Assembly (NCBI GenBank): GCA_018812485.1
Contig: JAHJDO010000042.1
Span: 9,512-73,511, forward strand
Source of the DNA: a bacterium
Lineage (GTDB): Bacteria > JAHJDO01
Length of the DNA stretch: 64,000 bases
Direction: 5' to 3'
Shown here: piece after piece, positions 12,221-43,517 of the stretch
Layout of the letters: every line of letters starts with the position of its first letter
Position numbering within the stretch: position 1 is the first letter of the stretch
Program-made: the position numbers and the translations under genes
The notes under the pieces: generated by a model
The model's input: the letters and a program-made list of their open reading frames with translations, nothing else
Database searches by the model: none
What the model was told of the DNA's origin: nothing

Positions 12221-12859
12221 ATGGATTATTATGAAAGATATTGGAAAAGAAGTTTTGGACAAAATGGGGTGGCTGCTTCACCTCCTTCGTGGAACGAAAA
12301 AGATCTTATAAAAATCACGGATATAGCAAAACCATATTGTTATGGGAATGTATTGGACATAGGATGCGGAGATGGAACTTTTACTTCTTATTTGAGTAAA
12401 TTCAGTAAAGTTAAAAAAATAACAGGGGTTGATATATCTCAAAATGCTATTTCTCAGGCAAAAAGGAAATATCCTGAAATTGAGTTTAAAGTTGTTTCTC
12501 AGGCAACACTGCCTTTTTCTAAAGAGAGCTTTGATTTCATAACAATGGTGGAGGTAGTTGAGCATATAATGGATACAGAGCAGATATTTAAAGAAGCCAA
12601 TAAAATTTTAAAACCAGGTGGTTGTATTTTAATTACAACAACGGATTTTAATCTGGCGAAAAAAATAATTGTAGCAGCTTTCTTTTGGGGAAAATATTTT
12701 TATCCAACTAATCCTCATATAAGATTTTTTACAAAAGCGACACTAAAAGACATTTTGGACAAAACAGGGTTTAAGGCGATCAAGCATAAGTGGAATGGAA
12801 GCTATCTGGGTTTAATGCCAAAAGGACAAATAATGATTGCGAAAAAACCATGTTTTTGA
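12221..12859 (+). CDS. Class I SAM-dependent methyltransferase
   Basis: Motif I is VLDIGCGDGTFTSYL, the acidic-loop region is VDIS, and there is an ILKPGG motif. Confidence 0.7.
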   Translation: MDYYERYWKRSFGQNGVAASPPSWNEKDLIKITDIAKPYCYGNVLDIGCGDGTFTSYLSKFSKVKKITGVDISQNAISQAKRKYPEIEFKVVSQATLPFSKESFDFITMVEVVEHIMDTEQIFKEANKILKPGGCILITTTDFNLAKKIIVAAFFWGKYFYPTNPHIRFFTKATLKDILDKTGFKAIKHKWNGSYLGLMPKGQIMIAKKPCF

Positions 12860-13893
12860 AACTGTCTCAATACGCATCGTTTGTATATATTAAGGCGTCC
12901 ATTGAAAAACCATGGATAATAGATGGAATAATGCACCTTGTCAATTTGCCTCTGTTGGTACAAGCATACCAACGCCTATATTCTCCAGTGATTTCTAAAA
13001 AACTTTCTTTGCCGTCTAAACAAATCGCAATTGAGACCTACAATATTTGTAACTTGAAATGTATAATGTGTCCATATCCAAAAATGACCCGTCCCAAAAC
13101 CAAGATGTCAATGAGCCTTTTTCAGAGAATTGTAGACGATGTCTCTAAAAATGGTTTCACTGAACTAAATTTAAGCCTGTATAGTGAGCCGCTATTGGAT
13201 GATTTACTCTTCCAAAGAATCAGCTATGCAAAAGAAAAAGGGCTAAAAGTAGGTTTTACATCAAACGGGACTCTGCTGACACCTGATAAAATTCAGGGAA
13301 TTTTGGAAAGCGAACTTGATTGGATAGTCTTTAGTGTTGATAGTGACAAAAAGAAGTCTTATGAGCATATAAGAGTTGGCGCTGATTTTGAGGAGACCTG
13401 TGCCAATATTAAAGAACTAATAGATTGCCGTCGGGAAAAAAACAGTGCTAAACCACAGATCATCATTCACTCCACAATAGTGACAAAGGATAATTTACAC
13501 GCGTCCAAATTACTGGCGCAAATTTTAACGGGTGCAGACCACTTCACTATGGCATTAGCCGACTCTCGGCGAGAGGATGATTTCTGCTTCACAAAAAAGT
13601 CCTTCTCAAAGGTTCATAAGGGGCGTCTCTATCCATGCCCCATACTATGGGGTGCGCCTACGGTTATGAGCAATGGGAAAGTAGTCCTTTGTTGTAAGGA
13701 TTATGATGGTTCCATTGAACTCGGAGACCTGAACAAACAGACAATCAGGGAAATCTGGAATTCTGACAAGCTGAGCAGAATAAAAGAACTTCATTTAAGA
13801 GGGGAGGGATGCAAAATAGAACTTTGCAAAAATTGCGACTCTCTATACCGAGCAAGCTTAAGCTGGTGGGTTAAGCAGGAAATCAAAGTATGA
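12850..13893 (+). CDS. Radical SAM protein with a C-terminal SPASM/twitch Cys-rich domain
   Basis: The radical SAM motif is NICNLKCIMCPY (Cx3Cx2C). The C-terminal auxiliary-cluster cysteines are CPILWGAP...VVLCCKDYDGS...GCKIELCKNC. The ORF track begins at 12790, but I place the start at the ATG at 12850 (MFLKLSQY), which overlaps the upstream methyltransferase by only a few bases. Confidence 0.7.
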   Translation: MFLKLSQYASFVYIKASIEKPWIIDGIMHLVNLPLLVQAYQRLYSPVISKKLSLPSKQIAIETYNICNLKCIMCPYPKMTRPKTKMSMSLFQRIVDDVSKNGFTELNLSLYSEPLLDDLLFQRISYAKEKGLKVGFTSNGTLLTPDKIQGILESELDWIVFSVDSDKKKSYEHIRVGADFEETCANIKELIDCRREKNSAKPQIIIHSTIVTKDNLHASKLLAQILTGADHFTMALADSRREDDFCFTKKSFSKVHKGRLYPCPILWGAPTVMSNGKVVLCCKDYDGSIELGDLNKQTIREIWNSDKLSRIKELHLRGEGCKIELCKNCDSLYRASLSWWVKQEIKV

Positions 13894-15092
13894 GTAAGAC
13901 TTCAGCGATTAATATTATTGCTAATGCTGCCTTAGGACCTCTTTTAAGCGGAGGGGATAATATATTTATTGAGTGCGCAAGACGATGGGCACAAATGGGG
14001 CATAAAATAAACATTTTTGTCTGGGAAGAAGGGCTTGAAATGTGCAGGAAAAATCATTTAACAGGAGTTAATTATATCATTTGGAAAGCTGCAAGGTTTA
14101 AGCGAGCAGGATTCCCTATACTTTATTTTTCACGTGTTATTATTGGATGCATGAAATCTTTGAGATGCAATTTAAAATTACCGGCTATTATATATTCTTC
14201 TTCTGATTTCTGGCCGGATTCAATCCCTGCGTTTATAATGAAGATAAAAAATAAGCAGGCAAGGTGGATTGCAGGATTTTACCTCTTTGCCCCCAAACCA
14301 TGGCAGGAAGATTCTCCTTACAAAGGTAAAAGATGGATAATTGGGCTGTTTTATTGGTTAATGCAGCTGCCTGTTTATTGGATTGTCAAAAAATTTGCGG
14401 ATATGGTTTTTGTGACGAGTGAACCAGATGTCGAAAAATTTGTAACAGAAAAAAGAGACAGAAACAAAATCATAGTAATTCGAGGTGGAGTGGATATATA
14501 TCCTTCCGAAAAATATTTAAATTCTAATAAGATTATACCTGTTGAAGAAAGAAAGTATGATGCTGTTTTTATAGGAAGATTCCATCCACAGAAGGGAGTT
14601 TTGGAACTTATAGATATTTGGAATTTGGTTTGCGAAAGGAAGCCAGCAGCAAAACTTGCGATGATAGGAAGCGGTCCTCTGGAGAATGAGATCAGACAAA
14701 GAATTGAACGCAGCGACCTGGAGCGCAATATTGATTTATTGGGGTTTAAGGATGGAGAAGAAAAATACAAAATCTTTAAACAAGGTAAAATAGTAATTCA
14801 TCCAGCAATCTATGATAGTGGTGGCATGGCAGCTGCAGAAGCTATGGCATGGGGGATTCCAGGAGTAGGCTTTGACCTGGAGGCATTAAAGACTTATTAT
14901 CCTAGAGGGATGGTTAAAGTGGCACAGGGTGATTACAAAAAATTCGCTAAGGAGATTATTGAACTTCTGGAGAATAAAGGTTATTATTTAAAGGTTTCCG
15001 ACGAGGCAAGAGATTTGATAATTAAGGAATGGGATTGGGATAAAAGGGCAAAATTTATCTCTAATAAGATTTTATCAAAGACTATAAATTAA
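13890..15092 (+). CDS. Family 4 glycosyltransferase (GT-B)
   Basis: The GT4 C-terminal motif is GGMAAAEAMAWGIPGVGFD. The overall length is 400 aa. Confidence 0.65.
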   Translation: MSKTSAINIIANAALGPLLSGGDNIFIECARRWAQMGHKINIFVWEEGLEMCRKNHLTGVNYIIWKAARFKRAGFPILYFSRVIIGCMKSLRCNLKLPAIIYSSSDFWPDSIPAFIMKIKNKQARWIAGFYLFAPKPWQEDSPYKGKRWIIGLFYWLMQLPVYWIVKKFADMVFVTSEPDVEKFVTEKRDRNKIIVIRGGVDIYPSEKYLNSNKIIPVEERKYDAVFIGRFHPQKGVLELIDIWNLVCERKPAAKLAMIGSGPLENEIRQRIERSDLERNIDLLGFKDGEEKYKIFKQGKIVIHPAIYDSGGMAAAEAMAWGIPGVGFDLEALKTYYPRGMVKVAQGDYKKFAKEIIELLENKGYYLKVSDEARDLIIKEWDWDKRAKFISNKILSKTIN

Positions 15093-15126
15093 TATGAACA
15101 AAAATTAGTTTTTAAAATATAAAAGC

Positions 15127-16620
15127 ATGTCAAATAAAAGCCCAAGTTCAAAAAAACTCAATTCGTTGGATTTGTTAAAATTACGGAAAAAATTTATAAC
15201 TGAAAGTTATGATAATGTAGCTTCTCAAAGAGATAGTTGGATAGAAAAAAATAAGTACTACTATGATTATTTTAAAAAGATTCTAAGATTTATTGTTGAG
15301 CCACAGAGTTCAGTCTTACAAATTAAATGTGAAACAGGGTATTATCTTGATGCTGTAAATCCCAGATATGGTCTCGGTCTTGATTATAGTATCAATATGG
15401 TTCAAGTTGCAAAGGATAGATACAAACATCTTGATTTTGAGGTACAGGATTTAGAAAACATTAATATAAAACAGAAATTTGAGTATGTTCTTTTAGTGAA
15501 TGCACTTGGAGATGTTGTAGATGTCCAAAAGTTATTGAGTGGATTTAAAGACGCAGTAGACCATAAGACAAGAATAATAATTATAAATTATAATGCTTTA
15601 TGGCAGCCTTTAATAAATTTGGCCAATCTGTTGAGACTTAAGATAAAACAGCCTACTCAGAATTGGTTATCTGCTTGCGATATGGAAAACTTGTTGTATT
15701 TAACGGGATATGAAATTGTAAAAAGTTTTAATATTATTCTTTGTCCGATCTATATTCCTGTTATTGCAAATTTTTTAAATAATATAGTTGCAAGACTTCC
15801 TTTATTGCAAAGATTATGCCTGGACCATGTATTCGTCGTAAGAAAGGTTGTAAGCCGAAAAAATTATAGGGATTATTCCGTTTCTGTTGTTATTCCATGT
15901 AAAGATGAAAAGGATAATATTGAAAATATCGTGCAGAGAATACCTCAAATTGGTAAACACACAGAAATGATTTTTTGTGACGATAAGTCGCAAGACGGAA
16001 CTGTTGAAGAAATTCTGCGGGTTAAGGGAAAATATTCTAATAAAAACATAAAATTGATTTATGGGCCCGGTATCTGCAAGTCAAAAAATGTCTGGGCGGG
16101 TTTTGAAGCGGCTAAAGGTGATATATTGATGATACTTGATGCAGACTTAACTGTTATTCCCGAGGAATTGACTTATTTTTTTGAGGCAATTGTTGAGGGA
16201 AAAGGAGAATTTATAAATGGGTCTCGTCTAATCTATCCTATGGAAGAAGGTGCTATGAATTTTTCTAAGATATTAGGGAACAAGTTCTTTAGCTTGCTGT
16301 TTTCTTACATTTTGGACCAAAGGATAAAAGATACGCTTTGTGGGACTAAAGTTTTTTGGCGAGATGATTATTTTCGAATGAAAAAATACATCGGTCATTG
16401 GGGAGCTGATGATTTATGGGGAGATTACGATCTTTTATTTAGCGCAACAAAATTAAATCTAAAAATCATTGACCTTCCAGTCCATTACTTTGATAGAACA
16501 TATGGATATACTAAAATGAAAAATGTACTATTCAATGGCACTAGAATGTTGCGGATATCTTTGGCGGCATTGACTAAAGTAAAATTTCTTAAGGGTGCCA
16601 AATCTCTAATGGGGGAATAG
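15127..16620 (+). CDS. Fusion of an N-terminal methyltransferase-like domain with a C-terminal GT2 glycosyltransferase
   Basis: The C-terminal half has YSVSVVIPCKDEKDNIENIVQRI...FCDDKSQDGT...ILDADL, which is DPM/DPG-synthase-like GT2. The N-terminal 240 aa resemble a class I MTase fold (LGLDYSINMV...LLVNALGDVVDV). Confidence 0.55.
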   Translation: MSNKSPSSKKLNSLDLLKLRKKFITESYDNVASQRDSWIEKNKYYYDYFKKILRFIVEPQSSVLQIKCETGYYLDAVNPRYGLGLDYSINMVQVAKDRYKHLDFEVQDLENINIKQKFEYVLLVNALGDVVDVQKLLSGFKDAVDHKTRIIIINYNALWQPLINLANLLRLKIKQPTQNWLSACDMENLLYLTGYEIVKSFNIILCPIYIPVIANFLNNIVARLPLLQRLCLDHVFVVRKVVSRKNYRDYSVSVVIPCKDEKDNIENIVQRIPQIGKHTEMIFCDDKSQDGTVEEILRVKGKYSNKNIKLIYGPGICKSKNVWAGFEAAKGDILMILDADLTVIPEELTYFFEAIVEGKGEFINGSRLIYPMEEGAMNFSKILGNKFFSLLFSYILDQRIKDTLCGTKVFWRDDYFRMKKYIGHWGADDLWGDYDLLFSATKLNLKIIDLPVHYFDRTYGYTKMKNVLFNGTRMLRISLAALTKVKFLKGAKSLMGE

Positions 16621-16622
16621 AT

Positions 16623-17699
16623 ATGTTACCAAAATCAGTATCCAGAGCTAGAATCGGGCTTGCAATGTGGATGTATAATCTTCTTGGTATTAGAAGACCA
16701 TTGACATCTCAAATTCTGGTCACTAAGTACTGCAATTTAAATTGTAAAATGTGCTTTGTCTATCCATTAGACAAAAAAGAAAAAATCGCGAATACCAAAG
16801 AACCAACTTTTGAACAATTGGAATACTTGATTGATGAATCTTGTAAACTAGGAGCTCAGGTTATTGTTCCATTTGGAGGAGAGCCTTTATTAAGAAAAGA
16901 TATTGGCGAAATAATAAAGGCTATCAAACAAAGAAACAGGTATTGCCTATTGTACACCAATGGGACCTATGTAGAGGAAAAAATCAATGATTTACTACCT
17001 GTTGATCAGCTTGTAATAAGTATAGATGGAGATGAACATACTAATGATAGCATTAGAGGTAAGGGTGTTTACAAAAAAGCAATTGCAGCGCTGGAACTTG
17101 CTTTAGAACATGGTATTGTGTGTAGGTTGCACTCTTGTTTGATTCCAGAAACAATATGCACTTTAGAACATATGTCAGCTTTATCTAAGAAGTACGATGT
17201 AATGATCAATTATGGATATTGCGATATAACAGCTTTCACAAAACCAGCTGAGAAGGACATTTCGTTGGGTCGAGAAGATGTTATAGCATTTTTGAAGAGA
17301 TATTACGAAATGAAAAAATCGGGAGTGCGAATATCTACCCCAGCAAGAGTGATAAAGGAATGTATTAGGATTATGGAAGATTGGCCAGTAGATAACACTA
17401 TCCTTTCAAAAAGTGAGGCAAAGGAATTTTCTAAACTGAGAATACCTAGATGCGCTTTGGCATCATCCAATATTTATATTGATAGTGATGGTAGTGCCTA
17501 TCCCTGTTTGCCGCTATGGGGTAAAGAGGTTAATCCTCCCAATGTTTACGAACTAGGCCTGAGGAAGGCATGGAATTATTATAAAAAATTGGACTGTCAC
17601 CAATGCGCCTCGATTTTTACTATTGAGAAGAGTCTTTTTTACAGTTTTGATGTAATGACATTGCTTCAATATATTTCAGGATATCAGTTTCTCAGATGA
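16623..17699 (+). CDS. Radical SAM/SPASM-domain protein
   Basis: The cluster motif is VTKYCNLNCKMCFVY followed by GGEPLL. The C-terminal Cys-rich region is CALASS...YPCLPLWG...CHQC. It is paralogous to the 35933 gene. Confidence 0.7.
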   Translation: MLPKSVSRARIGLAMWMYNLLGIRRPLTSQILVTKYCNLNCKMCFVYPLDKKEKIANTKEPTFEQLEYLIDESCKLGAQVIVPFGGEPLLRKDIGEIIKAIKQRNRYCLLYTNGTYVEEKINDLLPVDQLVISIDGDEHTNDSIRGKGVYKKAIAALELALEHGIVCRLHSCLIPETICTLEHMSALSKKYDVMINYGYCDITAFTKPAEKDISLGREDVIAFLKRYYEMKKSGVRISTPARVIKECIRIMEDWPVDNTILSKSEAKEFSKLRIPRCALASSNIYIDSDGSAYPCLPLWGKEVNPPNVYELGLRKAWNYYKKLDCHQCASIFTIEKSLFYSFDVMTLLQYISGYQFLR

Positions 17700-17759
17700 G
17701 GAACAAATATAAAGTTTAATAGTGGATTAATGTTAAAAAATCAATAGAATATTGTTTAT

Positions 17760-18479
17760 ATGGATCAGCGTATTCTAAACGAAATTGAACATGGGAGAAA
17801 AATAGTTAACTTTGCTGGTAAAGTTTGGGGTTGGGAAACTCCTGCTGGTAGAGAACGATGGAAGCGTAGAGTTGAGATGCTCGTTTCTAATGTTACGCCC
17901 GAGATGAAGGTGCTGGAAGTGGGTTGTGGAATAGGCTACCTGACAAAGTCGCTTCAGAATAAAAAGGCAACGATAGTATCAATTGATATTTCTTATGATT
18001 TGATTGAAGTTGCGAAAAGCAATGTTGGTATTGGCAACATTACCTTTTTGTTACAGAATGCATCCAGTTTAGGCTTAGCAGATAATTTATTTGATATAGT
18101 TATAGGAAGTTCAGTATTACATCATCTTGAAGTAGATAAAGCTTTAGCTGAATTTTACCGAGTTTTAAAGAAAGAGGGCTTGTTGGTTTTCACTGAACCT
18201 AATATGATGAATCCCCAAATTGCTGTTCAGAAGAATATTTCACTTTTTAAAAAATTAGCCGGGGATTCTCCTGATGAGGCAGCTTTTTTTCGCTGGCTAT
18301 TGAAGAAAAAATTAATAAAACACGGATTTCGTGATATCAAACTTAAAACTTTTGATTTTTTGCATCCAGAGACTCCAAAGGGTTTGGTCCCCTTTATGAA
18401 AGACATAGGTGACTTTGCAGAATCAATTCCGCTTATTTCTGAAATAGCCGGGTCAATATATATTGAAGCAAGAAAATAA
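17760..18479 (+). CDS. Class I SAM-dependent methyltransferase
   Basis: Motif I is VLEVGCGIGYLTKSL. LVFTEPN is a post-II motif. Confidence 0.7.
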   Translation: MDQRILNEIEHGRKIVNFAGKVWGWETPAGRERWKRRVEMLVSNVTPEMKVLEVGCGIGYLTKSLQNKKATIVSIDISYDLIEVAKSNVGIGNITFLLQNASSLGLADNLFDIVIGSSVLHHLEVDKALAEFYRVLKKEGLLVFTEPNMMNPQIAVQKNISLFKKLAGDSPDEAAFFRWLLKKKLIKHGFRDIKLKTFDFLHPETPKGLVPFMKDIGDFAESIPLISEIAGSIYIEARK

Positions 18480-18491
18480 AGAAAAAGGATT

Positions 18492-32989: not shown

Positions 32990-32993
32990 AACT

Positions 32994-34466: not shown

Positions 34467-34479
34467 GAAAAGAGTAAAA

Positions 34480-35898: not shown

Positions 35899-35932
35899 TT
35901 GTGATGATACCTGTAAAAAAGGAGTAAAGGAT

Positions 35933-36988: not shown

Positions 36989-37007
36989 ATTTAAAGGAAT
37001 TAAAGTC

Positions 37008-37625: not shown

Positions 37626-37647
37626 TGTTGTTGTAATCGGAGGTTTT

Positions 37648-38142
37648 ATGCAAGATTTTAAAAATATTTGTAAATTCTGTAATGAGATAAAGTTGAATTT
37701 GGTTTGCGGTGGTAAAGAATTCGTATTGGGCGATATATTACCCGATAATATTTGTCCTCTTGCTTTTCATAGTATCTATCCTTATATAATTACCCTTTCG
37801 AAAGGCGGCTGGCTTAATTGGGTGGGGCATGATGAACATGTTATTGTAAATTGTCCATTTGGGCGTGGTGTCGCTATGTACGTTAAGGCTCCTTCTTTAA
37901 AATCACAACAGTATCTAGAAGTTGAGGTGATGAAAATCAGAGAGAATAACGAATGTTATAAAGGATATGTGTTAAAAAAAGTTTTTCAATTTAATATAAG
38001 CGATGAGAATATGTTTAAGTTGGGGTTATTATATAGATCTATTCCTTTTATTCTAAGCAGAGATGATGATAACAATAGTGATCCGATGGAAATTTGTTAC
38101 AATTTTGAAGGGGAAAAAGTTCAATGTCAGGTGGAGTTTTGA
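37648..38142 (+). CDS. Cys-rich TIGR04076-like protein, paralog of the upstream gene
   Basis: ICPLAFHSIYPYIITLSKGGWLNW...VNCPFGRGVAMYVKA parallels CRELFYTAYPRCLAVLYSGKPTRGWL...VRCPAANGIKVLIRV in the upstream protein. A GGAGG ribosome-binding site precedes the start. Confidence 0.4.
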   Translation: MQDFKNICKFCNEIKLNLVCGGKEFVLGDILPDNICPLAFHSIYPYIITLSKGGWLNWVGHDEHVIVNCPFGRGVAMYVKAPSLKSQQYLEVEVMKIRENNECYKGYVLKKVFQFNISDENMFKLGLLYRSIPFILSRDDDNNSDPMEICYNFEGEKVQCQVEF

Positions 38143-38948
38143 TAGATAAACTACGAAATAAGACTGTGCTGATTACTGGCGCATCGAAGGGAATTGGTAG
38201 GGCTATAGCCCTACTATTCAGCGGTTACAATATGAAAATTGGTTTGATAGCTCGTTCTGAAGATAAACTTAAAGAGGTATCCAATTGTGTGAATTCAGCT
38301 GGTGGCGAAGCTTTGATATTAAATACAGATTTGAGGGATCGAAAAGCCATAGAAGATGCAGTGCTTGAATTTAAAAATAAATTTGGTGAACCTGATTTTT
38401 TAATTAATAATGCAGGAATAGCTGCTCGTGGTTTTTGGCAGGATATTTCGCTTGATTCAGAGCTTGATGTAATGAACGTTAATTACACAGCAGCTGTTAT
38501 TCTTATGCGCCTTCTGTTGCCTGGTATGATGCAAGCCGACAGTGGGCATATAATAAATATTAGTGCGATTGCAGGAATATATACTGCTCCATATCAGGGA
38601 GCATATTGTGCAAGCAAGGCAGCTCTCCTGGCTTATTCAGTAAGTCTTGGTTATGAGTTAGAGAAGACAAATGTAAAGATTTCCTCAATATTATTTCCAG
38701 GTCCAGTCGATACTGATTTTTTGAAAAGCCCAAATTTTGAAAGTTTTAGAAAATTTAAAGATATAATATCTCCAGACCTTATAGCTCAGAGCGTTCTGTC
38801 AGTAATTGAGAATCCAAAAGAAATGGTTTTCGTAGGGCCACTATGGAAATTAATTGCAGCAAAGATTGCAAGTTTAAAGCCCGAATTCTTCAGGAAAATA
38901 ATTGAAAAAAAGAATACGCCTCCAGAATCTCTTGATGTTTTTAAGTAA
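38124..38948 (+). CDS. Short-chain dehydrogenase/reductase (classical SDR)
   Basis: VLITGASKGIGRAIA is the TGxxxGxG motif. NNAG is present, and the catalytic tetrad has Y at YCASKAA (YxxxK). Confidence 0.75.
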   Translation: MSGGVLIDKLRNKTVLITGASKGIGRAIALLFSGYNMKIGLIARSEDKLKEVSNCVNSAGGEALILNTDLRDRKAIEDAVLEFKNKFGEPDFLINNAGIAARGFWQDISLDSELDVMNVNYTAAVILMRLLLPGMMQADSGHIINISAIAGIYTAPYQGAYCASKAALLAYSVSLGYELEKTNVKISSILFPGPVDTDFLKSPNFESFRKFKDIISPDLIAQSVLSVIENPKEMVFVGPLWKLIAAKIASLKPEFFRKIIEKKNTPPESLDVFK

Positions 38949-38953
38949 ATATT

Positions 38954-40015
38954 ATGTTTGAAATTATTCTAGGATATATAGATTTTTTGTCTCTAAGAAA
39001 ACTTGGAGTGCTACCCAGAGCTGTGCGGGGCGTGTTCGATAGAGCTGTTCTTAAAAAGCCCCATTTAAGAGTAGCAGAGATTGCTACAACATTCATGTGT
39101 AATTCCAATTGTATAATGTGCTCTTGCGCAAAATTCTACAATTGCGAAAAAGAGAAAAACCGAATGAGTGTTTCTGAATATAAATCTCTTGGCAGGGAGC
39201 TTGACAAACTCGGATGTATTTCTGTAAATGTCACTGGAGGAGAACCGCTCATTCGTAAAGATATTGACGATGTAATTATCGCATTAAAGCCAAAAAATAA
39301 AATTGTTAATTTAATAACCAATGGAATTAATTTAACTCGTGAGAAAATAAAATATTATTCATCCATTGGTATTGACAGTATTGTTGTTAGTCTGGAAAGC
39401 ATTTCTGCAGAGGAGAATGATAAAATTCGTGGGCATGAGGGTCATTTTCAGGTAGTTATGAATGCAATTCAGTGGGCTAAGGAAGAAAAAGTCAAGTTTG
39501 GTATTAGTCTTACACTTGGAGATTTTAATTTTAAAAAAGTCTATGAACTGATTCAGTTTGCGCAAAGCAAATCGATTTTTCTTTGTATTGCCCATTGCGG
39601 TAGTATCGGAAAATGGGCAGGCAATGATTCAATGTTTCTATCTGGAAAAAACGCAATAAAAGTAATCAGCTTAATCAAAAAACATGGTAAGATTAAAATA
39701 GACTTCAGCGCAAATCTCAGCTTAAAGCCGGGCTGTCCGGCTTTTATTGAGAAGATATATATTACGCCGTATGGTGATGTACTGCCATGTACCTTTAATC
39801 CTATCTCGTTTGGTAATCTTCGCGAAGAATCTCTATCAATCATCTGGAACCGCATGTTAAAATTTTATAACGAAAATGTGCATAGTAAAACATTATGCTT
39901 GCGAAGTTATGATAAGGAATTTATTGGGAAATTCCTTAATCCTATAAAAAACATGAAACAGCCTGTACGGATAGATGAACATCCATATTTCAAAACACAT
40001 GGAAGTTTAAAATAG
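38954..40015 (+). CDS. Radical SAM/SPASM-domain protein
   Basis: The cluster motif is ATTFMCNSNCIMCSC followed by TGGEPLI. The C-terminal Cys pairs are CPAFIEKIYITPYGDVLPC and CLRSY. Confidence 0.7.
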   Translation: MFEIILGYIDFLSLRKLGVLPRAVRGVFDRAVLKKPHLRVAEIATTFMCNSNCIMCSCAKFYNCEKEKNRMSVSEYKSLGRELDKLGCISVNVTGGEPLIRKDIDDVIIALKPKNKIVNLITNGINLTREKIKYYSSIGIDSIVVSLESISAEENDKIRGHEGHFQVVMNAIQWAKEEKVKFGISLTLGDFNFKKVYELIQFAQSKSIFLCIAHCGSIGKWAGNDSMFLSGKNAIKVISLIKKHGKIKIDFSANLSLKPGCPAFIEKIYITPYGDVLPCTFNPISFGNLREESLSIIWNRMLKFYNENVHSKTLCLRSYDKEFIGKFLNPIKNMKQPVRIDEHPYFKTHGSLK

Positions 40016-40016
40016 G

Positions 40017-40832
40017 ATGAGTATGACGAAAACCCTGAATTTTCTTAGAGATAGAATAAAGACTGTGCCGGAAATCCTTATAATATTGGGATCCGGTTTT
40101 GCGAAAGTAGCAGATAAGATGAAAATAAGAGTCGAAATACCTTATCAGGATATACCTCATTTCAAGAAGACAAGTGCACCTACTCATAGCGGTAATCTTA
40201 TAGCCGGGAAAATAAACGGCAGGGATGTATTAGTGATGCAGGGCAGGTATCATGTTTACGAAGGTTATGAAATTAGTTTTACTACTTATCCCGTGCGCGT
40301 GGCAGCCGAATTAGGAGTAAAAAAATTAATAACCACTAACTTATCCGGCGGTATTAACGAGAATTTTAACATAGGTGATTTTATGCTTGTCAAAGATCAC
40401 CTAAATGTATCCGGTGTCAACCCTTTGATTTGGGATTCAGGGAGAACATCCGGTCAATTTACAGATATGTATGAAGCATATTCTTCGCATTTAATCAGGC
40501 TGTTAGAAAGGTCCGCTTCTGAATTGGGTATTACCTTGCATAAGGGAGTATTGGCCTATCTAACTGGTCCTAATTTTGAAACCCGATCTGAATTAAAAAT
40601 GTTAAAACTTCTGGGTGCAGATGCTGTTGGTTGGTCTCTGGTGCCGGAAGTTCTGGAAGCTCGCAGATATGGCATGGACGTTTTAGGTATCGTTTGCATC
40701 AGTGACCTTTCCAATCCGGATAGCTTCAACCCTGTTAATTTAGAAGAGATATATCAAATCGGAAAAGAAAAAGCTGACACACTATTTCTCTTACTGGCGA
40801 GTTTTATGTCTAAATTGCAGAATGGAGCTTAA
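40017..40832 (+). CDS. Phosphorylase of the purine nucleoside phosphorylase / 5'-methylthioadenosine phosphorylase family (PNP/MTAP family 2)
   Basis: ILGSGFAKVADKM, HSGNLIAGKINGRDVLVMQGRYHVYEGY and GPNFETRSELKMLKLLGADAVGWSLVPEV match conserved blocks of trimeric PNP/MTAP. Confidence 0.7.
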   Translation: MSMTKTLNFLRDRIKTVPEILIILGSGFAKVADKMKIRVEIPYQDIPHFKKTSAPTHSGNLIAGKINGRDVLVMQGRYHVYEGYEISFTTYPVRVAAELGVKKLITTNLSGGINENFNIGDFMLVKDHLNVSGVNPLIWDSGRTSGQFTDMYEAYSSHLIRLLERSASELGITLHKGVLAYLTGPNFETRSELKMLKLLGADAVGWSLVPEVLEARRYGMDVLGIVCISDLSNPDSFNPVNLEEIYQIGKEKADTLFLLLASFMSKLQNGA

Positions 40833-40840
40833 TTGGCTGG

Positions 40841-41521
40841 ATGAAAAAACTAATTAAAATAAGACGATATAAAAATGAAAAGCATTACGAAGTAAATATA
40901 GATGGATTAAAGCGATTATGTCCATTATATAAAGTTGCTCCTGAGACCTGGATTGTTGGAAATGAGCATATCTCTTTCGGCACAGATATAGAGTTTACTC
41001 AAAAAATTGGGAGAAAGCTGGCAGAAAAAATATCTAAGTTTAAAGCAGATTGTATTTTAACAGCAGAAGCTAAATCTCTGGGCGCAGCTTATGAAGTTGC
41101 TAGAAATTTGGGTCACAAAAATTTTGCCATCGCCAGGAAAAGCATCAAGCCGTATGACAAGAATTACATTTCCACGGAAATAAAATCAATAACATCCGCA
41201 AAAAAAGAGCTTCTGTACTTAGATGATTTCAACATTGCCCGCATTAGAGGTAAAAAGATAGTGCTATTTGATGACGTTATCTCCACATGCAGTACCATGC
41301 TCGGACTTATAGAACTGGCAAAAAAGGCAGGGGCAGAAGTTTGCGCTATGGCAGCAATCTGGCTGGAAGGCTCTTTGGTCTTTGAACAGTTCATAGAGGA
41401 ATTTAAAGCGGGGCGGTTAATACATATAGATATTCTTCCTATTTTTACCATTGGTAAAACCTATGACAAATTACGCAATAAAAATATTTCTATTGAAAGG
41501 CTTTTAGAGCGTCGGAGATAA
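40841..41521 (+). CDS. Type I phosphoribosyltransferase-domain protein, possibly an adenine/purine PRTase
   Basis: The PRPP-binding motif is KIVLFDDVISTCSTMLGLIELAKKAGAEV (hydrophobic-DD-hydrophobic...T). The gene sits immediately after the PNP/MTAP-like gene. Confidence 0.45.
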   Translation: MKKLIKIRRYKNEKHYEVNIDGLKRLCPLYKVAPETWIVGNEHISFGTDIEFTQKIGRKLAEKISKFKADCILTAEAKSLGAAYEVARNLGHKNFAIARKSIKPYDKNYISTEIKSITSAKKELLYLDDFNIARIRGKKIVLFDDVISTCSTMLGLIELAKKAGAEVCAMAAIWLEGSLVFEQFIEEFKAGRLIHIDILPIFTIGKTYDKLRNKNISIERLLERRR

Positions 41522-41523
41522 CA

Positions 41524-42468
41524 ATGAAAGGAAAATACCCTGGAGCTTATAATTTTCTGAAAACTATTGGAGTAAGAAAAGAAGAAAGCGTTCTTATACT
41601 GACGGACGAGCTTGCGGAGAGTGATGCAATCCAGGTAATAAGAAGGGTATTTTATGATAAATGTTCAAAAGTCAATGTAGAAACTCTACCCCTGGAACTT
41701 CAACATGATTTTCCCGAGAACGTTTGTCAGCTAATCGAAGATTTTGATGTAATAATTCTGGCAGCCAGCCAGTCCTGGTACCAGGTTCCAGCGAGAAGAA
41801 AGGCCAAGTACCGGAGCAAAAAACGGGTAGTGGAATGTTATAATTTGACATTGGAAATGATGAAGGAAGGTGCGTTATGTGCTAATTATGAAGACATCAG
41901 GCTTTTTACAGCGGATTATAAGAAAAGCTTTAAGCTCGGAGCTTCTTTGACCATAAAAACAGACCAAGGTACGAATCTTTCAGCAGTAATTAGAGATGTA
42001 TTTGATGAGACTGGGTGTTATGATAAGCCCGGGTCTGGCGGGAATTTACCGGCAGGCGAAATTTCTTTAGGAGTAACAGAAGGCGAGACCTATGGAGAAA
42101 TAGTTTTCGATATTAGCTTTGATGTACTTGGCAGATTAGAGAAAAAACCGCTAAAAGTTTTCGTAGATAAAGGCCGGGTAGTGAAAGTTGAGGGCAAGTC
42201 TAGAGAAAATTTCGAGAAATTATTTGAAAATGATGAGTACTTGCGTAATGTTGCAGAAGTAGGAATTGGTACTAATAGTTATGCTATTATAGGGCGGTCA
42301 GTGCTGGAAGATGAGAAAAAAACAGGGACAGCTCATATCGGTTTTGGAAATGACACATATTTTGGCGGTAATGTAGAAGGCTGTCATTTAGATGGAGTTT
42401 TCTTATCGCCAAAAATTACTGTAGATGGCAAAGATGTAATCGGAGATTTAGTGAGCAATAAAAGATGA
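41524..42468 (+). CDS. M29 (AmpS/PepS)-like aminopeptidase-fold protein, or hypothetical protein
   Basis: GNLPAGEISLGV and TAHIGFGND resemble the conserved GN(I/L)PSGE and HiAxG blocks of family M29. At 314 aa it is shorter than typical members. Confidence 0.35.
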   Translation: MKGKYPGAYNFLKTIGVRKEESVLILTDELAESDAIQVIRRVFYDKCSKVNVETLPLELQHDFPENVCQLIEDFDVIILAASQSWYQVPARRKAKYRSKKRVVECYNLTLEMMKEGALCANYEDIRLFTADYKKSFKLGASLTIKTDQGTNLSAVIRDVFDETGCYDKPGSGGNLPAGEISLGVTEGETYGEIVFDISFDVLGRLEKKPLKVFVDKGRVVKVEGKSRENFEKLFENDEYLRNVAEVGIGTNSYAIIGRSVLEDEKKTGTAHIGFGNDTYFGGNVEGCHLDGVFLSPKITVDGKDVIGDLVSNKR

Positions 42469-43517
42469 TAGGGAAAATACGCAGGTTTTTATCTCCTGCT
42501 GCAAAAGAGAAGATTTTAAATTCTCTGCCATATAAATTTTTAACTCGTATTCGATTGCATAGGCACGAGATACGATTTAGCTGCGAGTTGACAACCAGAT
42601 GTAATGCTAAGTGTGATATCTGTACTCGGGACTCTCTTATTAAAAAGGGGCAGCTATATGTTGGCGATATGGGAAAAGATCTTATCAAACGTGTTATGGA
42701 GGAGATTAAGAAATTTCATAATGATGGAAGACGTATTTATTTTGTGCCTATGGGTTTAGGTGAACCGCTTTTATATAAGGGCTTATTTGACTTGTTTCAG
42801 GACATTAAATATATTTCAAAAAAAATTGGCATCGTACTTGTGACTAATGGACTTTCACTTGATGACCGTTGTTGTAAAGAACTTATTTCCTTGGGAATTG
42901 ATGAAGTTACTGTCAGTTTAAATGCTATCAACGCTTCAAGTTATCAACAACATATGGGTGTGGATGGGTATGATAAAGTTTGTCATAATATTGAAAATTT
43001 AATAAATTTGCGTAACAAAAGTGGCAAAAAACTGCCGAATGTCTTCGTTCAATATATTGACTATGACAATAATCAAAAATTATTTCAAAAAGCTGTCAAG
43101 AGATGGTCGAACATAATGCGATACAACGACAAGTGTTATGTTCACCCTATTATGAATCAGGCTAATTTCTTTTTAGGCGAATGTACGTCCAAATATTCAG
43201 ATGTGAGATATCCCTGCACTCAACCTCTATGGAGAATCGCAATAAAAGTTAATGGAGATATTTATCCATGTGATCCTAGTTTTTATTCCGGGAACCAAAA
43301 AATAACTTTTCTTTATCTGGGCAATATCATAAATAAAAGCCCCTTTGATATATTGATGAACAAAAAGAGCAAGCCATTTAAGATATTGGAAAGTATGCGA
43401 AAAGATGATTACTCACAAATTCCCGAATGTGCGAAGTGCAACACTTATAAATTAGAATGCAATTCTTATTTTGAACTTCCCAGGCCATTGAGGACTAAGG
43501 AATGTAAATGGCTATGA
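42465..43517 (+). CDS. Radical SAM/SPASM-domain protein
   Basis: The cluster motif is LTTRCNAKCDICTRD followed by GLGEPLL. The C-terminal region is CTQPLWRIAIKVNGDIYPCDP...CAKCNTYKLEC. Confidence 0.7.
   Translation: MIGKIRRFLSPAAKEKILNSLPYKFLTRIRLHRHEIRFSCELTTRCNAKCDICTRDSLIKKGQLYVGDMGKDLIKRVMEEIKKFHNDGRRIYFVPMGLGEPLLYKGLFDLFQDIKYISKKIGIVLVTNGLSLDDRCCKELISLGIDEVTVSLNAINASSYQQHMGVDGYDKVCHNIENLINLRNKSGKKLPNVFVQYIDYDNNQKLFQKAVKRWSNIMRYNDKCYVHPIMNQANFFLGECTSKYSDVRYPCTQPLWRIAIKVNGDIYPCDPSFYSGNQKITFLYLGNIINKSPFDILMNKKSKPFKILESMRKDDYSQIPECAKCNTYKLECNSYFELPRPLRTKECKWL

What the first reader, a model, noticed from the sequence alone, without database searches (positions are those of the whole stretch)
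12850..43517. Six SPASM/twitch radical SAM enzymes with no candidate precursor-peptide ORFs, suggesting sugar-directed chemistry
SPASM-domain radical SAM enzymes usually modify ribosomal peptides or proteins. Examples are the anaerobic sulfatase maturases and the RiPP maturases. Here the paralogs at 12850, 16623, 35933, 38954 and 42465, plus the fused one at 24946, sit among glycosyltransferases with intergenic gaps too small for precursor peptides (at most ~35 bp, apart from one ~225-bp gap that holds a promoter-like sequence). A plausible alternative is BtrN/DesII-like oxidation, epimerisation or deamination of carbohydrate substrates. Another is action on the TIGR04076-like Cys-rich proteins at 37008-38142.
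Basis: inference. Interest (0 to 1): 0.6.

Follow-up and report, generated by a model that had tools for sequence, protein, structure and literature searches.

The report
Radical-SAM-rich surface glycan operon
An uncultured bacterium carries a roughly 59-kb sugar-polymer gene array containing twelve radical SAM enzymes, and the six flagged ones have no peptide to act on and most likely tailor sugars, two of them inside a rare conserved cassette with an uncharacterised cysteine-rich protein pair tied to a dehydrogenase.

Summary
Six genes at the stated coordinates encode radical SAM proteins with a C-terminal Fe-S domain. They sit in a single-strand array of 50 genes (3709-62746) that is rich in glycosyltransferases. 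The gaps contain no plausible precursor-peptide ORF, here or in 9 related loci.

Corrections:
- The six are not recent paralogs; only S2 and S4 share 33% identity.
- Their conserved cysteines fit the one-cluster "twitch" pattern of BtrN, not full SPASM.
- Six more B12-binding radical SAM genes share the array.

The six fall into separate units, each with a non-peptide partner:
- S3 is a recurrent GT2-radical SAM fusion found in Wzy-type polysaccharide clusters.
- S6 travels with a B12 radical SAM, a nucleotide-sugar-type SDR and a GT4.
- S1 aligns with BtrN over the core and the twitch domain.
- S4 and S5 belong to a rare cassette seen only in uncultured genomes from several phyla. It also holds the two TIGR04076-like proteins and an SDR.

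Elsewhere those TIGR04076-like proteins are fused to each other and to the same kind of SDR, so they are enzyme subunits rather than substrates.

Sugar-directed chemistry is the best reading (about 0.6). It rests on context, and the product is unknown.

The parts
12850..13893 (+). S1: twitch radical SAM, BtrN-like. It lies between methyltransferase 12221 and GT4 13890.
   Evidence: Pfam Radical_SAM 62 bits and SPASM 52 bits. CX3CX2C at residue 67. Only BtrN matches in the PDB below E=0.001 (9e-13); the alignment covers the core (58-171) and the twitch domain (270-332) and shares the LCKNC motif.
16623..17699 (+). S2: twitch radical SAM, an in-array relative of S4 (33% identity).
   Evidence: C277, C295, C325 and C328 align with the 100%-conserved cysteines of the S4 family. 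Best PDB match is BlsE at 1e-7.
24946..26988 (+). S3: fusion of a GT2 glycosyltransferase with a twitch radical SAM domain.
   Evidence: GT2 110.7 bits and Radical_SAM 61.5 bits. About 28 full-length fusion clusters at 27-63% identity. Bacterial homologs sit in Wzy-type polysaccharide clusters. Conserved C589, C607, C645, C647 and C651.
35933..36988 (+). S4: twitch radical SAM and core member of the T76 cassette.
   Evidence: Orthologs at 57-82% identity on many metagenomic contigs. An S4-family gene lies immediately upstream of T76a in every cassette locus that has context. C275-X17-C293...C320-X2-C323 are 100% conserved in 61 sequences.
37008..37625 (+). T76a: protein made of two TIGR04076 repeats, with 7 invariant Cys and 2 invariant His.
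   Evidence: TIGR04076 60.6 bits against cutoff 33. Alignment A1. AF2 model pLDDT 81, no PDB fold match. Only 291 relatives among 1.84 billion representatives.
37648..38142 (+). T76b: paralogous partner of T76a.
   Evidence: TIGR04076 32.4 bits. Homologous to T76a at 3e-7. Natural T76a-T76b fusions P0097 and P0101. The fusion model is compact, pTM 0.84. Invariant C8, C36 and C69.
38124..38948 (+). Short-chain dehydrogenase (adh_short) that works with T76a/T76b.
   Evidence: adh_short 158.9 bits. Orthologs at 53-56% identity in cassette loci. SDR-T76b-T76a and T76b-T76a-SDR fusions exist whose SDR part matches this gene best.
38954..40015 (+). S5: twitch radical SAM with three conserved C-terminal cysteines; an accessory cassette member.
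   Evidence: Orthologs at 63-74% identity in L007, L009 and L016. Conserved C261, C279 and C315. Best PDB matches are SkfB 1e-13, then BlsE, MoaA and PqqE.
42465..43517 (+). S6: twitch radical SAM of a second conserved module.
   Evidence: Orthologs at 43-71% identity lie next to a B5-like B12 radical SAM, an SDR like 43508 and a GT4 like 13890. C224, C251, C269, C322 and C325 are conserved, but C332 and C347 are not.
43508..46031 (+). Partners of S6: an NAD-dependent epimerase/dehydratase (43508-44473, HpnA-like) and the B12 radical SAM B5 (44478-46031).
29136..35898 (+). Cassette members upstream of S4: a membrane-anchored NPP-type phosphodiesterase fused to a methyltransferase (29136-31475), then the B12 radical SAMs B2, B3 and B4.
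   Evidence: PDE, B2 and B4 orthologs in cassette loci. About 6 TM helices. Thr-nucleophile motif and no formylglycine motif. B4 is HpnJ-like at 233 bits, below the cutoff.
40017..42468 (+). Purine-nucleoside phosphorylase, an adenine-PRT-like phosphoribosyltransferase and a NicX-like protein.
   Evidence: The phosphorylase passes the curated cutoff (287 against 218), and the PRTase falls just below the adenine PRT cutoff (133 against 143). The NicX label (PF26233) comes from precomputed annotation; my own Pfam scans found no significant family for this protein. The trio is conserved at 58-65% identity in L009.
23712..24902 (+). GT9 (heptosyltransferase-family) glycosyltransferase; its orthologs open the cassette in other loci.
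   Evidence: Orthologs at 33-39% identity in L007, L009 and L016; a GT9-family gene also opens the cassette in L059.
3709..62746 (+). The whole same-strand array of 50 genes: flippase, GT2/GT4/GT9 and GT-C-like enzymes, 6 class I methyltransferase domains, 12 radical SAM genes and nucleotide-sugar enzymes.
27125..27153 (+). Promoter-like site in the only large intergenic gap.
   Evidence: TTGACA-17-TAAAAT, 11 of 12 positions. The total number of such sites in the region is not above chance.

Best explanation
The interval is the centre of a roughly 59-kb operon-like array that builds a heavily tailored envelope glycoconjugate of LPS, capsule or glycolipid type. The host is an uncultured diderm bacterium, probably of the PVC group or Omnitrophota.

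The six flagged enzymes are twitch-type radical SAM enzymes with one auxiliary Fe-S cluster, like BtrN. They act on carbohydrate-type small molecules (nucleotide sugars, lipid-linked sugars or the growing glycan), not on ribosomal peptides.

They are four or five unrelated functional units, not one expanded family:
1. S4, and in some loci S5, works with a three-part oxidoreductase made of T76a, T76b and SDR 38124. This sits in a rare, horizontally scattered cassette that also carries a GT9 enzyme, a membrane phosphodiesterase and B12 radical SAM enzymes.
2. S6 works with a B12 radical SAM and a nucleotide-sugar-type SDR.
3. S3 is physically fused to a GT2 glycosyltransferase.
4. S1 is a BtrN-like dehydrogenase candidate.
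5. S2 is a diverged relative of S4.

Inferred mechanism, by analogy with BtrN and with AprD4/AprD3 (from my own knowledge of those enzymes). The radical SAM partner abstracts a sugar C-H hydrogen and produces a keto-sugar, either by radical oxidation or by dehydration. The adjacent SDR then reduces it with NAD(P)H, giving net epimerisation or deoxygenation. The B12 enzymes add C-methyl groups or rearrange rings. The class I methyltransferases cap O or N atoms.

Shown: the domain content, the absence of peptides, the conserved modules and the fusions. Inferred: the substrate class and the chemistry.
For: - Domains and motifs.
- A tightly packed single-strand array with 4 GT2 domains, 3 GT4, 1 GT9, a Wzx-type flippase, PMT_2 and YfhO-like membrane proteins, and many NDP-sugar-type SDRs.
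- In the operon tail the best NCBIfam matches are the GDP-heptose enzymes HddA (165 bits) and HddC (181 bits), GDP-fucose-synthase Fcl (449.5 bits against a cutoff of 500) and RfbH/PseC-type aminotransferases. This fits the GT9 enzyme.
- No precursor ORFs in the window, and no short ORF conserved across 9 related loci.
- No curated maturase model is reached, and no RRE domain was reported.
- The conserved cysteines follow C-X17-C...C-X2-C, and none keeps CX2CX5CX3C.
- The top PDB sequence matches are BtrN (S1, S6), BlsE (S2) and MoaA then BlsE (S4).
- The S3-type fusion recurs in about 28 clusters and sits among WecG, Bac_transf, Wzy_C and NeuB/CMP-sugar genes.
- Neighbours of S6 orthologs.
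- More distant S4 relatives lie among B12 radical SAM genes with a PMT-type glycosyltransferase (L057) or with GT2 genes and a transaldolase/SIS/HAD/NTP-transferase sugar route (L058).
- T76a, T76b and the SDR are fused in other organisms.
Against: - No substrate, product or activity is known for any protein of these families. The literature searches found no characterised member of these families or of this cassette.
- Similarity to BtrN, BlsE and MoaA is modest and partly reflects the shared radical SAM core.
- S5's best matches are the peptide-acting enzymes SkfB and PqqE.
- In Magnetococcales the T76 cassette sits beside multihaem cytochrome genes, with only one weak GT-like gene nearby. 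The cassette product therefore need not be a glycan.
- The window has no recognisable initiating phosphoglycosyltransferase and no Wzy polymerase.
- Every nucleotide-sugar assignment is below its curated cutoff.
Confidence: 0.62

Rival explanations
1. The T76 cassette (GT9, PDE, B12 radical SAMs, S4-family radical SAMs, T76a/b, SDR, and either PNP+PRT+NicX-like or a PurH-like protein) does not tailor a glycan. It builds a separate small molecule, such as a lipid head group, a cyclitol or a nucleoside-derived unit. One possible route resembles HpnH/HpnG: the 5'-deoxyadenosyl radical adds to the substrate and the phosphorylase then removes adenine. The product is afterwards attached to the envelope.
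For: - The cassette occurs without a large glycan cluster in Magnetococcales.
- A curated-cutoff purine-nucleoside phosphorylase and an adenine-PRT-like enzyme are conserved inside it.
- There are sub-threshold resemblances to hopanoid side-chain enzymes: B4 to HpnJ at 233 bits, 43508 to HpnA at 151 bits, and S2/S4 to HpnH at 66-77 bits.
- Cassette loci carry a membrane-anchored phosphodiesterase, and some also carry an MprF-type flippase domain.
Against: - All Hpn similarities are far below the curated cutoffs.
- The window and the inspected loci contain no squalene-hopene cyclase or other lipid-backbone gene.
- In the window, L007, L009, L016 and L059 the cassette begins with a GT9-family gene, and in the window, L007 and L009 it is flanked by sugar-activating or sugar-modifying genes.
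- The alternation between PNP/PRT and PurH-like genes is explained equally well by purine nucleotide supply for 18 SAM-using enzymes.
Confidence: 0.2
2. S4 and/or S5 act on the Cys-rich T76a/T76b proteins themselves. This would resemble QhpD acting on QhpC or anSME acting on sulfatases, installing cross-links or a protein-derived cofactor.
For: - T76a always lies immediately downstream of an S4-family radical SAM, including in all 5 T76a-seeded loci that have usable context (L009, L011, L016, L017, L059).
- The T76 proteins have many invariant cysteines.
- S5 is closest to SkfB and PqqE.
Against: - T76a is conserved along its whole 200 aa (mean column identity 60%) and has no leader/core organisation.
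- It gives confident folded models, and the a+b fusion is compact with pTM 0.84.
- T76 domains are fused to SDRs in both orientations, and once to DUF362 plus a ferredoxin domain. This is typical of enzyme subunits, not substrates.
- All six enzymes are twitch type and none has an RRE.
Confidence: 0.08
3. This is a cryptic RiPP system whose precursor is encoded elsewhere or is too short or unusual to be recognised.
For: SPASM/twitch radical SAM enzymes are common RiPP maturases. S2 and S5 give their best, though sub-threshold, NCBIfam scores to StsB/PapB and PqqE.
Against: - No small ORFs in the gaps, and none conserved across 9 loci.
- No Pfam hit to an RRE, a peptidase-containing transporter or a leader-peptidase domain in any of the 50 array proteins.
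- Scores are 4-10 times below the curated cutoffs.
- Every conserved neighbour is a sugar, SAM or redox enzyme.
Confidence: 0.03
4. The enzymes are anSME-like maturases that generate formylglycine in the cassette's sulfatase/alkaline-phosphatase-superfamily protein (29136).
For: The protein gives Sulfatase and Phosphodiest Pfam hits and is conserved in the cassette.
Against: - It has no C/S-x-P-x-R motif.
- Instead it has invariant LNIDG and TNPAFASIxTGxxPxxHG blocks. By my reading of the NPP family these are the metal-site and Thr-nucleophile signatures.
- The anSME model TIGR03942 scores only 34 bits against a cutoff of 349 for S6 and does not appear among the best 25 families shown for the other five.
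- The full SPASM cysteine set is absent.
Confidence: 0.02

Closest known systems
BtrN (2-deoxy-scyllo-inosamine dehydrogenase of butirosin biosynthesis), the founding twitch radical SAM enzyme
   Same: S1 aligns with BtrN in the radical SAM core and in the twitch domain, including the LCKNC cluster ligands. S6's best PDB match is also BtrN. The C-X17-C...C-X2-C pattern of S1, S2, S4 and S6 matches the four-Cys single auxiliary cluster of BtrN (plus my own knowledge of BtrN). BtrN also acts on a carbohydrate-derived small molecule with no peptide involved.
   Different: Identity is low: E=1e-12 for S1 and 3e-8 for S6, the latter over the core only. These proteins are about 100 aa longer. They sit in a surface-glycan array, not an aminoglycoside cluster. 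No 2-deoxy-scyllo-inosose synthase is present. The substrate is unknown.
AprD4/AprD3 (radical SAM dehydratase plus NADPH-dependent SDR reductase, C3' deoxygenation in apramycin)
   Same: A radical SAM enzyme is paired with an adjacent short-chain dehydrogenase. S4 lies three genes upstream of SDR 38124, S6 lies next to SDR 43508, and the S4-like gene in L058 has an adh_short gene directly downstream. The proposed logic is the same: a radical step makes a ketone and the SDR reduces it.
   Different: The AprD4 model matches the B12-type enzyme B4 only weakly (99.5 bits against a cutoff of 500), not S4 or S6. Here the SDR comes with two extra Cys-rich subunits (T76a/b) that have no counterpart in the apramycin system.
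BlsE (cytosylglucuronate decarboxylase) and MoaA: twitch-type radical SAM enzymes that act on nucleoside sugars or nucleotides
   Same: BlsE is the best PDB match for S2, and MoaA then BlsE for S4; both are among the top matches for S5. S5 keeps only three C-terminal cysteines, as MoaA does (plus my own knowledge of MoaA).
   Different: E-values are 1e-7 to 1e-14, mostly over the core. No curated model cutoff is reached: BlsE 55.8 against 400, MoaA about 90 against 284.
Peptide- or protein-modifying SPASM enzymes (anSME, PqqE, SkfB, AlbA, QhpD)
   Same: They share the superfamily and the Pfam SPASM hit. S5 aligns with SkfB and PqqE through the C-terminal domain.
   Different: There is no precursor peptide, no RRE and no seven-Cys motif. 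Scores are far below the cutoffs. The sulfatase-like neighbour lacks the formylglycine motif.
Hopanoid side-chain pathway (HpnH radical SAM adenosylation, HpnG adenine removal, HpnJ B12 radical SAM ring contraction, HpnA SDR)
   Same: The enzyme types match: a twitch-like radical SAM, a PNP-family phosphorylase, an HpnJ-like B12 radical SAM and an HpnA-like SDR.
   Different: All matches are well below the curated cutoffs. The phosphorylase is a trimeric purine-nucleoside-phosphorylase type; the HpnG model is not among its NCBIfam matches. No hopene cyclase is present.

Membership tests
Radical SAM superfamily | CX3CX2C motif for the SAM-binding [4Fe-4S] cluster, and a Pfam PF04055 hit above the gathering score. 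| tested here: met
   All six have one CX3CX2C motif and score 58-88 bits against 29.5. The motif cysteines are 100% conserved in the ortholog sets of S2-S6.
Full SPASM domain (two auxiliary clusters) | A seven- or eight-cysteine set that includes CX2CX5CX3C. | tested here: not met
   None of the six contains CX2CX5CX3C. Only 3-5 C-terminal cysteines are conserved in the S2/S4, S3, S5 and S6 families, and S6's extra C332 and C347 are not conserved. S1 has 7 C-terminal cysteines but no orthologs were available to test their conservation.
Twitch subclass (one auxiliary cluster, BtrN/MoaA type) | A truncated SPASM domain with C-X~17-18-C ... C-X2-C (four Cys) or a three-Cys variant. | tested here: met
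   S2, S4 and S6 conserve C-X17-C...C-X2-C. S3 has C-X17-C...C-X-C-X3-C. S5 has C-X17-C-X35-C. S1 aligns with the BtrN twitch domain. Cluster content itself was not measured.
BtrN family (sugar or cyclitol dehydrogenase) | Full-length homology to BtrN and oxidation of a secondary alcohol on an aminocyclitol. | tested here: inconclusive
   S1 aligns with BtrN in two segments (core and twitch) at E=9e-13. S6 aligns over the core only, at 3e-8. Activity cannot be tested here.
RiPP maturase system | An adjacent precursor-peptide gene. | tested here: not met
   No candidate ORFs in the gaps. No short ORF is conserved among 9 related loci.
RiPP maturase system | An RRE (PqqD-like) domain in the enzyme or in a neighbour. 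| tested here: not met
   No PF05402 hit was reported for any array protein. The N-terminal extensions are only 36-66 aa. A dedicated RRE finder was not available.
RiPP maturase system | Membership in a curated maturase family (PqqE, AlbA, SkfB, StsB, PapB, CcpM, MftC and others). | tested here: not met
   The best scores are 30-102 bits against cutoffs of 265-850.
Anaerobic sulfatase-maturating enzyme (anSME) | The TIGR03942 model, and a sulfatase target with a C/S-x-P-x-R motif. | tested here: not met
   S6 scores 34 bits against 349. The AlkP-family protein 29136 and 6 orthologs have no such motif and carry an NPP-type Thr signature instead.
TIGR04076 family | The NCBIfam TIGR04076 model above its cutoff of 33 bits. 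| tested here: met
   T76a scores 60.6 bits in two repeats. T76b scores 32.4 bits, just below the cutoff, but it is homologous to T76a and is fused to it in P0097 and P0101.
Wzx/Wzy-dependent polysaccharide cluster | A flippase, a polymerase and an initiating phosphoglycosyltransferase alongside glycosyltransferases. | tested here: inconclusive
   A Polysacc_synt flippase is present at 5770 and eight GT domains are present. No Wzy_C, Bac_transf or Glycos_transf_4 hit was found in the window. Several polytopic membrane proteins have no Pfam hit (46866, 60627, 61637).
GDP-heptose pathway (HddA/HddC type) | The curated HddA and HddC models, plus a GmhA isomerase and a GmhB phosphatase. | tested here: not met
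   HddA and HddC are the best matches but fall below their cutoffs: 165 against 600 and 181 against 300. No SIS or HAD protein is present in the window. The resemblance is a lead only.
HpnH/HpnG-type adenosylation pathway | The HpnH model (TIGR03470), an HpnG-type nucleosidase and a hopene substrate. | tested here: not met
   S2 and S4 score 66-77 bits against 225. The phosphorylase passes the PRK08202 purine-nucleoside phosphorylase model instead. No cyclase is present.

The most novel reading that the evidence does not exclude
The conserved cassette would be an undescribed, horizontally mobile pathway. Its parts are GT9, a membrane phosphodiesterase, B12 radical SAMs, S4-family twitch radical SAMs, T76a/T76b and an SDR.

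In this reading, twitch radical SAM enzymes cooperate with a new kind of three-part, Cys-rich (Fe-S or Zn) SDR oxidoreductase. Together they build a higher-carbon or carbocyclic sugar for the cell envelope by radical C-C and C-H chemistry.

One possible step is addition of the 5'-deoxyadenosyl radical to the substrate. The conserved purine-nucleoside phosphorylase would then remove adenine and the PRTase would recycle it.

That would be a fourth example of the adenosylate-then-deadenylate logic known from hopanoids, futalosine and arsenosugars, and the first in glycan assembly.
Probability: 0.12. Interest if true: 0.85.

Novelty: new variant of a known kind. Interest (0 to 1): 0.64.

Why it matters
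Radical SAM chemistry on sugars is known almost entirely from antibiotic pathways (BtrN, DesII, AprD4, GenK, BlsE). This array suggests that uncultured anaerobes use it on a large scale to decorate their cell surface: 12 radical SAM genes and 6 methyltransferase domains among 50 genes.

If that is right, envelope glycans contain C-methylated, deoxygenated, epimerised or carbocyclic sugars that current glycan chemistry has not described.

The analysis also gives the orphan TIGR04076 family its first concrete functional context. The evidence points to a two-subunit Cys-rich module joined to a short-chain dehydrogenase and always encoded next to a twitch radical SAM.

The S4 + T76a + T76b + SDR set is small (four genes, about 3 kb) and can be reconstituted directly, so the question is open to experiment.

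Tried and rejected
- Small-ORF scan on both strands of the window and cross-locus conservation of small ORFs in 9 related loci. Nothing was found. The few hits were fragments or frame shadows of large genes.
- Rfam and tRNA scans of the window found nothing.
- NCBIfam placement of S1-S6: no model cutoff was reached, so no family name can be assigned.
- An explicit tree with anSME, BtrN, PqqE and AlbA was not built, because no reference sequences could be imported. Profile and PDB score rankings were used as a proxy.
- Literature searches for TIGR04076, for radical SAM enzymes in polysaccharide, capsule or Omnitrophota contexts, and for twitch or BtrN in glycans found no description of this cassette. 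One paper only guesses a redox or Fe-S role for a single-domain TIGR04076 protein next to a glycyl-radical activase (PMC8667426).
- anSME/formylglycine hypothesis: rejected.
- MTA or 5'-deoxyadenosine phosphorylase identity for 40017: not supported. The protein passes the purine-nucleoside phosphorylase model (287 bits) and scores only 73-78 bits on the MTAP models. The idea that the trio recycles radical SAM by-products remains possible but untested.
- A search for a PurH-like gene in the window found none.
- The genome-collection scan for T76a gave only 5 loci, all from MAGs, so no cultured host is available.

Full report
**What is there.** The window is dominated by one same-strand array of 50 ORFs from 3709 to 62746, with about 35% GC throughout. 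Pfam and NCBIfam scans of every ORF show:
- a Wzx-type flippase;
- four GT2 domains, three GT4 enzymes and one GT9;
- PMT_2 and YfhO-like polytopic membrane proteins;
- six class I methyltransferase domains;
- seven SDR-type epimerase, dehydratase or reductase genes;
- a GFO/IDH/MocA oxidoreductase and a DegT aminotransferase;
- a split transketolase, a GHMP kinase, a NUDIX hydrolase and a sugar-1-phosphate nucleotidyltransferase;
- twelve radical SAM genes.

Immediately upstream on the other strand are an XRE/cupin regulator and a DUF1559 prepilin-type protein. From my own knowledge, DUF1559 proteins are typical of PVC-group bacteria and Omnitrophota. The identical contig exists in a public metagenome assembly and in an NCBI MAG labelled only "bacterium".

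**Checking the observation.** All six coordinates are correct. Each protein has a Radical_SAM hit of 58-88 bits and one CX3CX2C motif. The SPASM model is above its threshold for S1, S4, S5 and S6 and slightly below for S2 and S3. S3 has an N-terminal GT2 domain. Intergenic distances range from -70 to +60 bp. The one exception is a 224-bp gap (26989-27212), which contains the best sigma-70-like match in the region. The conclusion still holds: no free-standing ORF of 15-90 aa lies within the array, apart from meaningless short ORFs in the 224-bp gap and at three junctions. No Rfam family and no tRNA is present. TIGR04076 membership is confirmed for 37008-37625 and is borderline for 37648-38142.

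**The six are not paralogs.** Only S2 and S4 align over their full length (33% identity, E=2e-60). The other pairs that align at all share 23-35% identity over partial stretches, mostly the radical SAM core. None reaches the curated cutoff of any NCBIfam model. The best partial scores scatter over the "tungsten cofactor maturase" model, AhbC/AhbD, MoaA, PqqE and StsB/PapB.

**Twitch, not SPASM.** I aligned each protein with its orthologs: 61 sequences for the S4/S2 family, 25 for S3, 4 for S5 and 5 for S6. I counted only conserved cysteines.
- S4 and S2 keep C-X17-C...C-X2-C at 100%.
- S6 keeps the same four cysteines plus one more upstream. Its additional C332 and C347, which made it look like a full SPASM domain, are not conserved.
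- S3 keeps C-X17-C...C-X-C-X3-C.
- S5 keeps only three C-terminal cysteines.
- None contains the CX2CX5CX3C motif that ligates the second auxiliary cluster in full SPASM enzymes.
- S1 has no orthologs in my data, but it aligns with BtrN in the core and in the twitch domain and shares the LCKNC ligand motif.

By sequence, then, these are one-auxiliary-cluster enzymes of the BtrN/MoaA kind. Among PDB sequences the top matches are:
- BtrN for S1 and S6;
- BlsE for S2;
- MoaA and then BlsE for S4;
- an unnamed radical SAM protein (9dfn) and SkfB for S3;
- SkfB, BlsE, MoaA and PqqE for S5.

**No peptide, no RRE, no sulfatase target.** Besides the negative ORF scan in the window, I compared all short ORFs in the gaps of nine related loci. 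None is conserved between loci. No Pfam scan of the array proteins reported a PqqD/RRE domain, and the segments before the CX3CX2C motif are only 36-66 aa. The cassette's alkaline-phosphatase/sulfatase-superfamily protein (29136) could in principle be an anSME client. It lacks C/S-x-P-x-R and carries an invariant NPP-type threonine signature, so it needs no formylglycine.

**The enzymes belong to separate conserved modules.**

(a) S3. The GT2-radical SAM fusion is a stable architecture, with about 28 full-length clusters at 27-63% identity. In bacterial contigs it lies among classic polysaccharide genes. L013 has GT1, WecG, Bac_transf and Wzy_C. L015 has NeuB, a UDP-GlcNAc 2-epimerase, a CMP-sugar synthetase, two B12 radical SAM genes, a WecA-type transferase, Wzy_C and GT9. 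A homolog that NCBI assigns to a Nanoarchaeota MAG stands alone among housekeeping genes.

(b) S6. Orthologs at 43-71% identity are flanked by a B5-like B12 radical SAM (3 of 4 loci), the 43508-type NAD-dependent epimerase/dehydratase, orthologs of GT4 13890 (3 of 4 loci) and methyltransferases.

(c) S4 and S5. These belong to what I call the T76 cassette:
- Its constant core is one to four S4-family radical SAM genes together with T76a and T76b.
- The adh_short SDR 38124 is usually present.
- S5, a membrane-anchored phosphodiesterase with or without a methyltransferase domain, B2- and B4-type B12 radical SAM genes and a GT9 gene are often present.
- Each locus examined has either the PNP/PRT/NicX-like trio (the window and L009) or a PurH-like AICARFT protein (L003/L004, L005, L007/L008, L058, L059).

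The cassette is found in MAGs labelled Magnetococcales, Thalassospiraceae, Spirochaetales, Omnitrophota, "Uhrbacteria" and unclassified. Only 5 loci were found among 185,579 species-representative genomes.

More distant S4 relatives again sit among many B12 radical SAM genes plus sugar enzymes. One, on a contig whose protein NCBI assigns to Lokiarchaeia, lies next to a PMT-type glycosyltransferase. Another lies next to a transaldolase/SIS/HAD/NTP-transferase set, which is typical of NDP-heptose or NDP-octose synthesis.

The window's own tail gives HddA, HddC, Fcl and RfbH/PseC as best, sub-threshold matches. That points to a modified GDP-heptose-like sugar and fits the GT9 heptosyltransferase-family enzyme.

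**The TIGR04076-like pair.** T76a is about 200 aa and consists of two TIGR04076 repeats. It has seven invariant cysteines, one nearly invariant cysteine and two invariant histidines, and its mean column identity is 60% over its whole length. T76b is a shorter paralog with three invariant cysteines and a GGWxNWV...VIVxCP motif.
- Two database proteins are natural T76a-T76b fusions. AlphaFold2 models one of them as a single compact body (pLDDT 81, pTM 0.84).
- Neither that model nor the T76a model matches any solved structure by Foldseek.
- An exhaustive profile search of 1.84 billion representative proteins finds only 291 relatives.
- The long relatives are fusions to short-chain dehydrogenases. 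The orders found are SDR-T76b-T76a, T76b-T76a-SDR, and a T76 part followed by an NAD-dependent epimerase/dehydratase. One further protein is fused to DUF362 plus a 4Fe-4S ferredoxin domain.
- In the three adh_short fusions the SDR part matches 38124 better than any other window protein.

The gene order T76a-T76b-SDR in the cassette is therefore also found as a single polypeptide elsewhere. This argues that the three form one oxidoreductase, and that the T76 proteins are subunits (metal-binding, substrate-holding or electron-handling) and not substrates of the radical SAM enzymes.

**How it most likely works.**
- *Shown:* a co-oriented, tightly packed array that combines sugar activation, sugar modification, glycosyl transfer, flipping and periplasmic transfer functions with 12 radical SAM and 6 methyltransferase domains. 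Also shown are the lack of peptide substrates, the twitch-type cysteine sets, and the module structure with its fusions.
- *Inferred:* S1-S6 abstract hydrogen from carbohydrate C-H bonds. By analogy with BtrN (radical oxidation of a secondary alcohol to a ketone) and AprD4/AprD3 (radical dehydration followed by SDR reduction), the pairs S4 with T76ab-SDR and S6 with SDR 43508 would give net epimerisation or deoxygenation of a nucleotide- or lipid-linked sugar. These analogies come from my own knowledge of those enzymes.
- *More speculative:* S3 would modify the sugar that its own GT2 domain transfers. The B12 enzymes would C-methylate or rearrange rings; B4 is most like the sugar-ring-contracting HpnJ, at 233 bits and below the cutoff. 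The class I methyltransferases would finish the decoration.
- *Open:* the PNP/PRT trio, or in other loci the PurH-like protein, may simply support the purine nucleotide economy of 18 SAM-consuming enzymes. Alternatively it may process an adenosylated intermediate. I could not distinguish these.

**Rivals.**
- The cassette may make a non-glycan small molecule (0.2). In Magnetococcales it lies beside cytochrome genes with only one weak GT-like gene.
- The T76 proteins could be substrates (0.08). The fusions and their fold-like conservation argue against this.
- A hidden RiPP (0.03) and anSME-type maturation (0.02) failed the tests described above.

**Novelty and verdict.** Sugar-acting radical SAM enzymes are a known kind. 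A surface-glycan array with twelve of them, the recurrent GT2-radical SAM fusion, and the cassette that couples twitch enzymes to a TIGR04076-SDR oxidoreductase do not appear in the literature I could search. I rate it a new variant of a known kind, with interest 0.64.

Noticed in passing
window 7963-9420, 31472-32989, 32994-34466, 34480-35898, 44478-46031, 51691-53199: Six B12-binding radical SAM genes share the array with the six twitch enzymes, which makes 12 radical SAM genes among 50. They are as divergent from each other as the twitch set (21-32% identity). B4 (34480) is most like the hopanoid ring-contracting enzyme HpnJ (233 bits, cutoff 578).
   Followed up: partly
window 40017-42468; L009 5403-7835: The trio of purine-nucleoside phosphorylase (passes its curated cutoff), adenine-PRT-like phosphoribosyltransferase and NicX-like protein is conserved at 58-65% identity in a marine cassette locus. 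The other cassette loci carry a PurH-like AICARFT protein instead. Both options make purine nucleotides. The reason is unknown: it could be SAM by-product salvage or processing of an adenosylated intermediate.
   Followed up: partly
window 29136-31475: A three-part protein with about six N-terminal transmembrane helices, an NPP-type alkaline-phosphatase domain (invariant LNIDG and TNPAFASIxTGxxPxxHG blocks, no formylglycine motif) and a C-terminal class I methyltransferase. Its architecture resembles EptA/LtaS-type periplasmic phospho-transferases. It is conserved in the cassette, and in some loci the methyltransferase is a separate gene.
   Followed up: partly
window 49785-58468: The operon tail looks like a modified GDP-heptose or deoxy-amino-sugar route. 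It has an Fcl-like synthase (449.5 bits against a cutoff of 500), a split transketolase, an HddA-like GHMP kinase, an RfbH/PseC-like aminotransferase, a NUDIX hydrolase and an HddC-like guanylyltransferase. All are below their curated cutoffs, and no GmhA or GmhB homolog is present.
   Followed up: partly
window 1-2200: About 2.2 kb at the left edge has no ORF longer than 104 aa on either strand and a negative GC skew, unlike the rest of the window. It could be a degraded gene or non-coding DNA. It has no Rfam hit.
   Followed up: no
window 2213-2917 (-) and 2973-3542 (-): A DUF1559 protein with a prepilin N-terminal methylation motif, which from my own knowledge is typical of PVC-group bacteria and Omnitrophota, and an XRE-HTH/cupin regulator. 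They are transcribed divergently from the array. The regulator is a candidate controller of the operon.
   Followed up: partly
window 20252-23740 and 46866-48611: A very large (1162 aa, about 14 TM helices) membrane protein with only a C-terminal YfhO match, and a 581-aa protein with about 9 TM helices and no Pfam hit. Both may be GT-C-type glycosyltransferases or polymerases. The window has no recognisable Wzy polymerase or initiating phosphoglycosyltransferase.
   Followed up: no
L005 346-1329, L015 12097-12963, L059 7909-8934: An MprF-type flippase domain (LPG_synthase_TM) recurs next to the radical SAM genes in three related loci. This hints that a lipid-linked intermediate is flipped across the membrane.
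   Followed up: no
proteins P0251, P0300, P0312, P0317, P0331: T76-family domains occur fused to adh_short SDRs in both orientations, to an NAD-dependent epimerase/dehydratase, and once to DUF362 plus a 4Fe-4S ferredoxin domain. This gives the orphan TIGR04076 family its first functional link.
   Followed up: yes
L013 2475-3368: In one S3-type locus, a B12 radical SAM gene appears broken into several short ORFs that match window B4 and B5 in pieces. This suggests pseudogenisation of a tailoring enzyme in that lineage.
   Followed up: no
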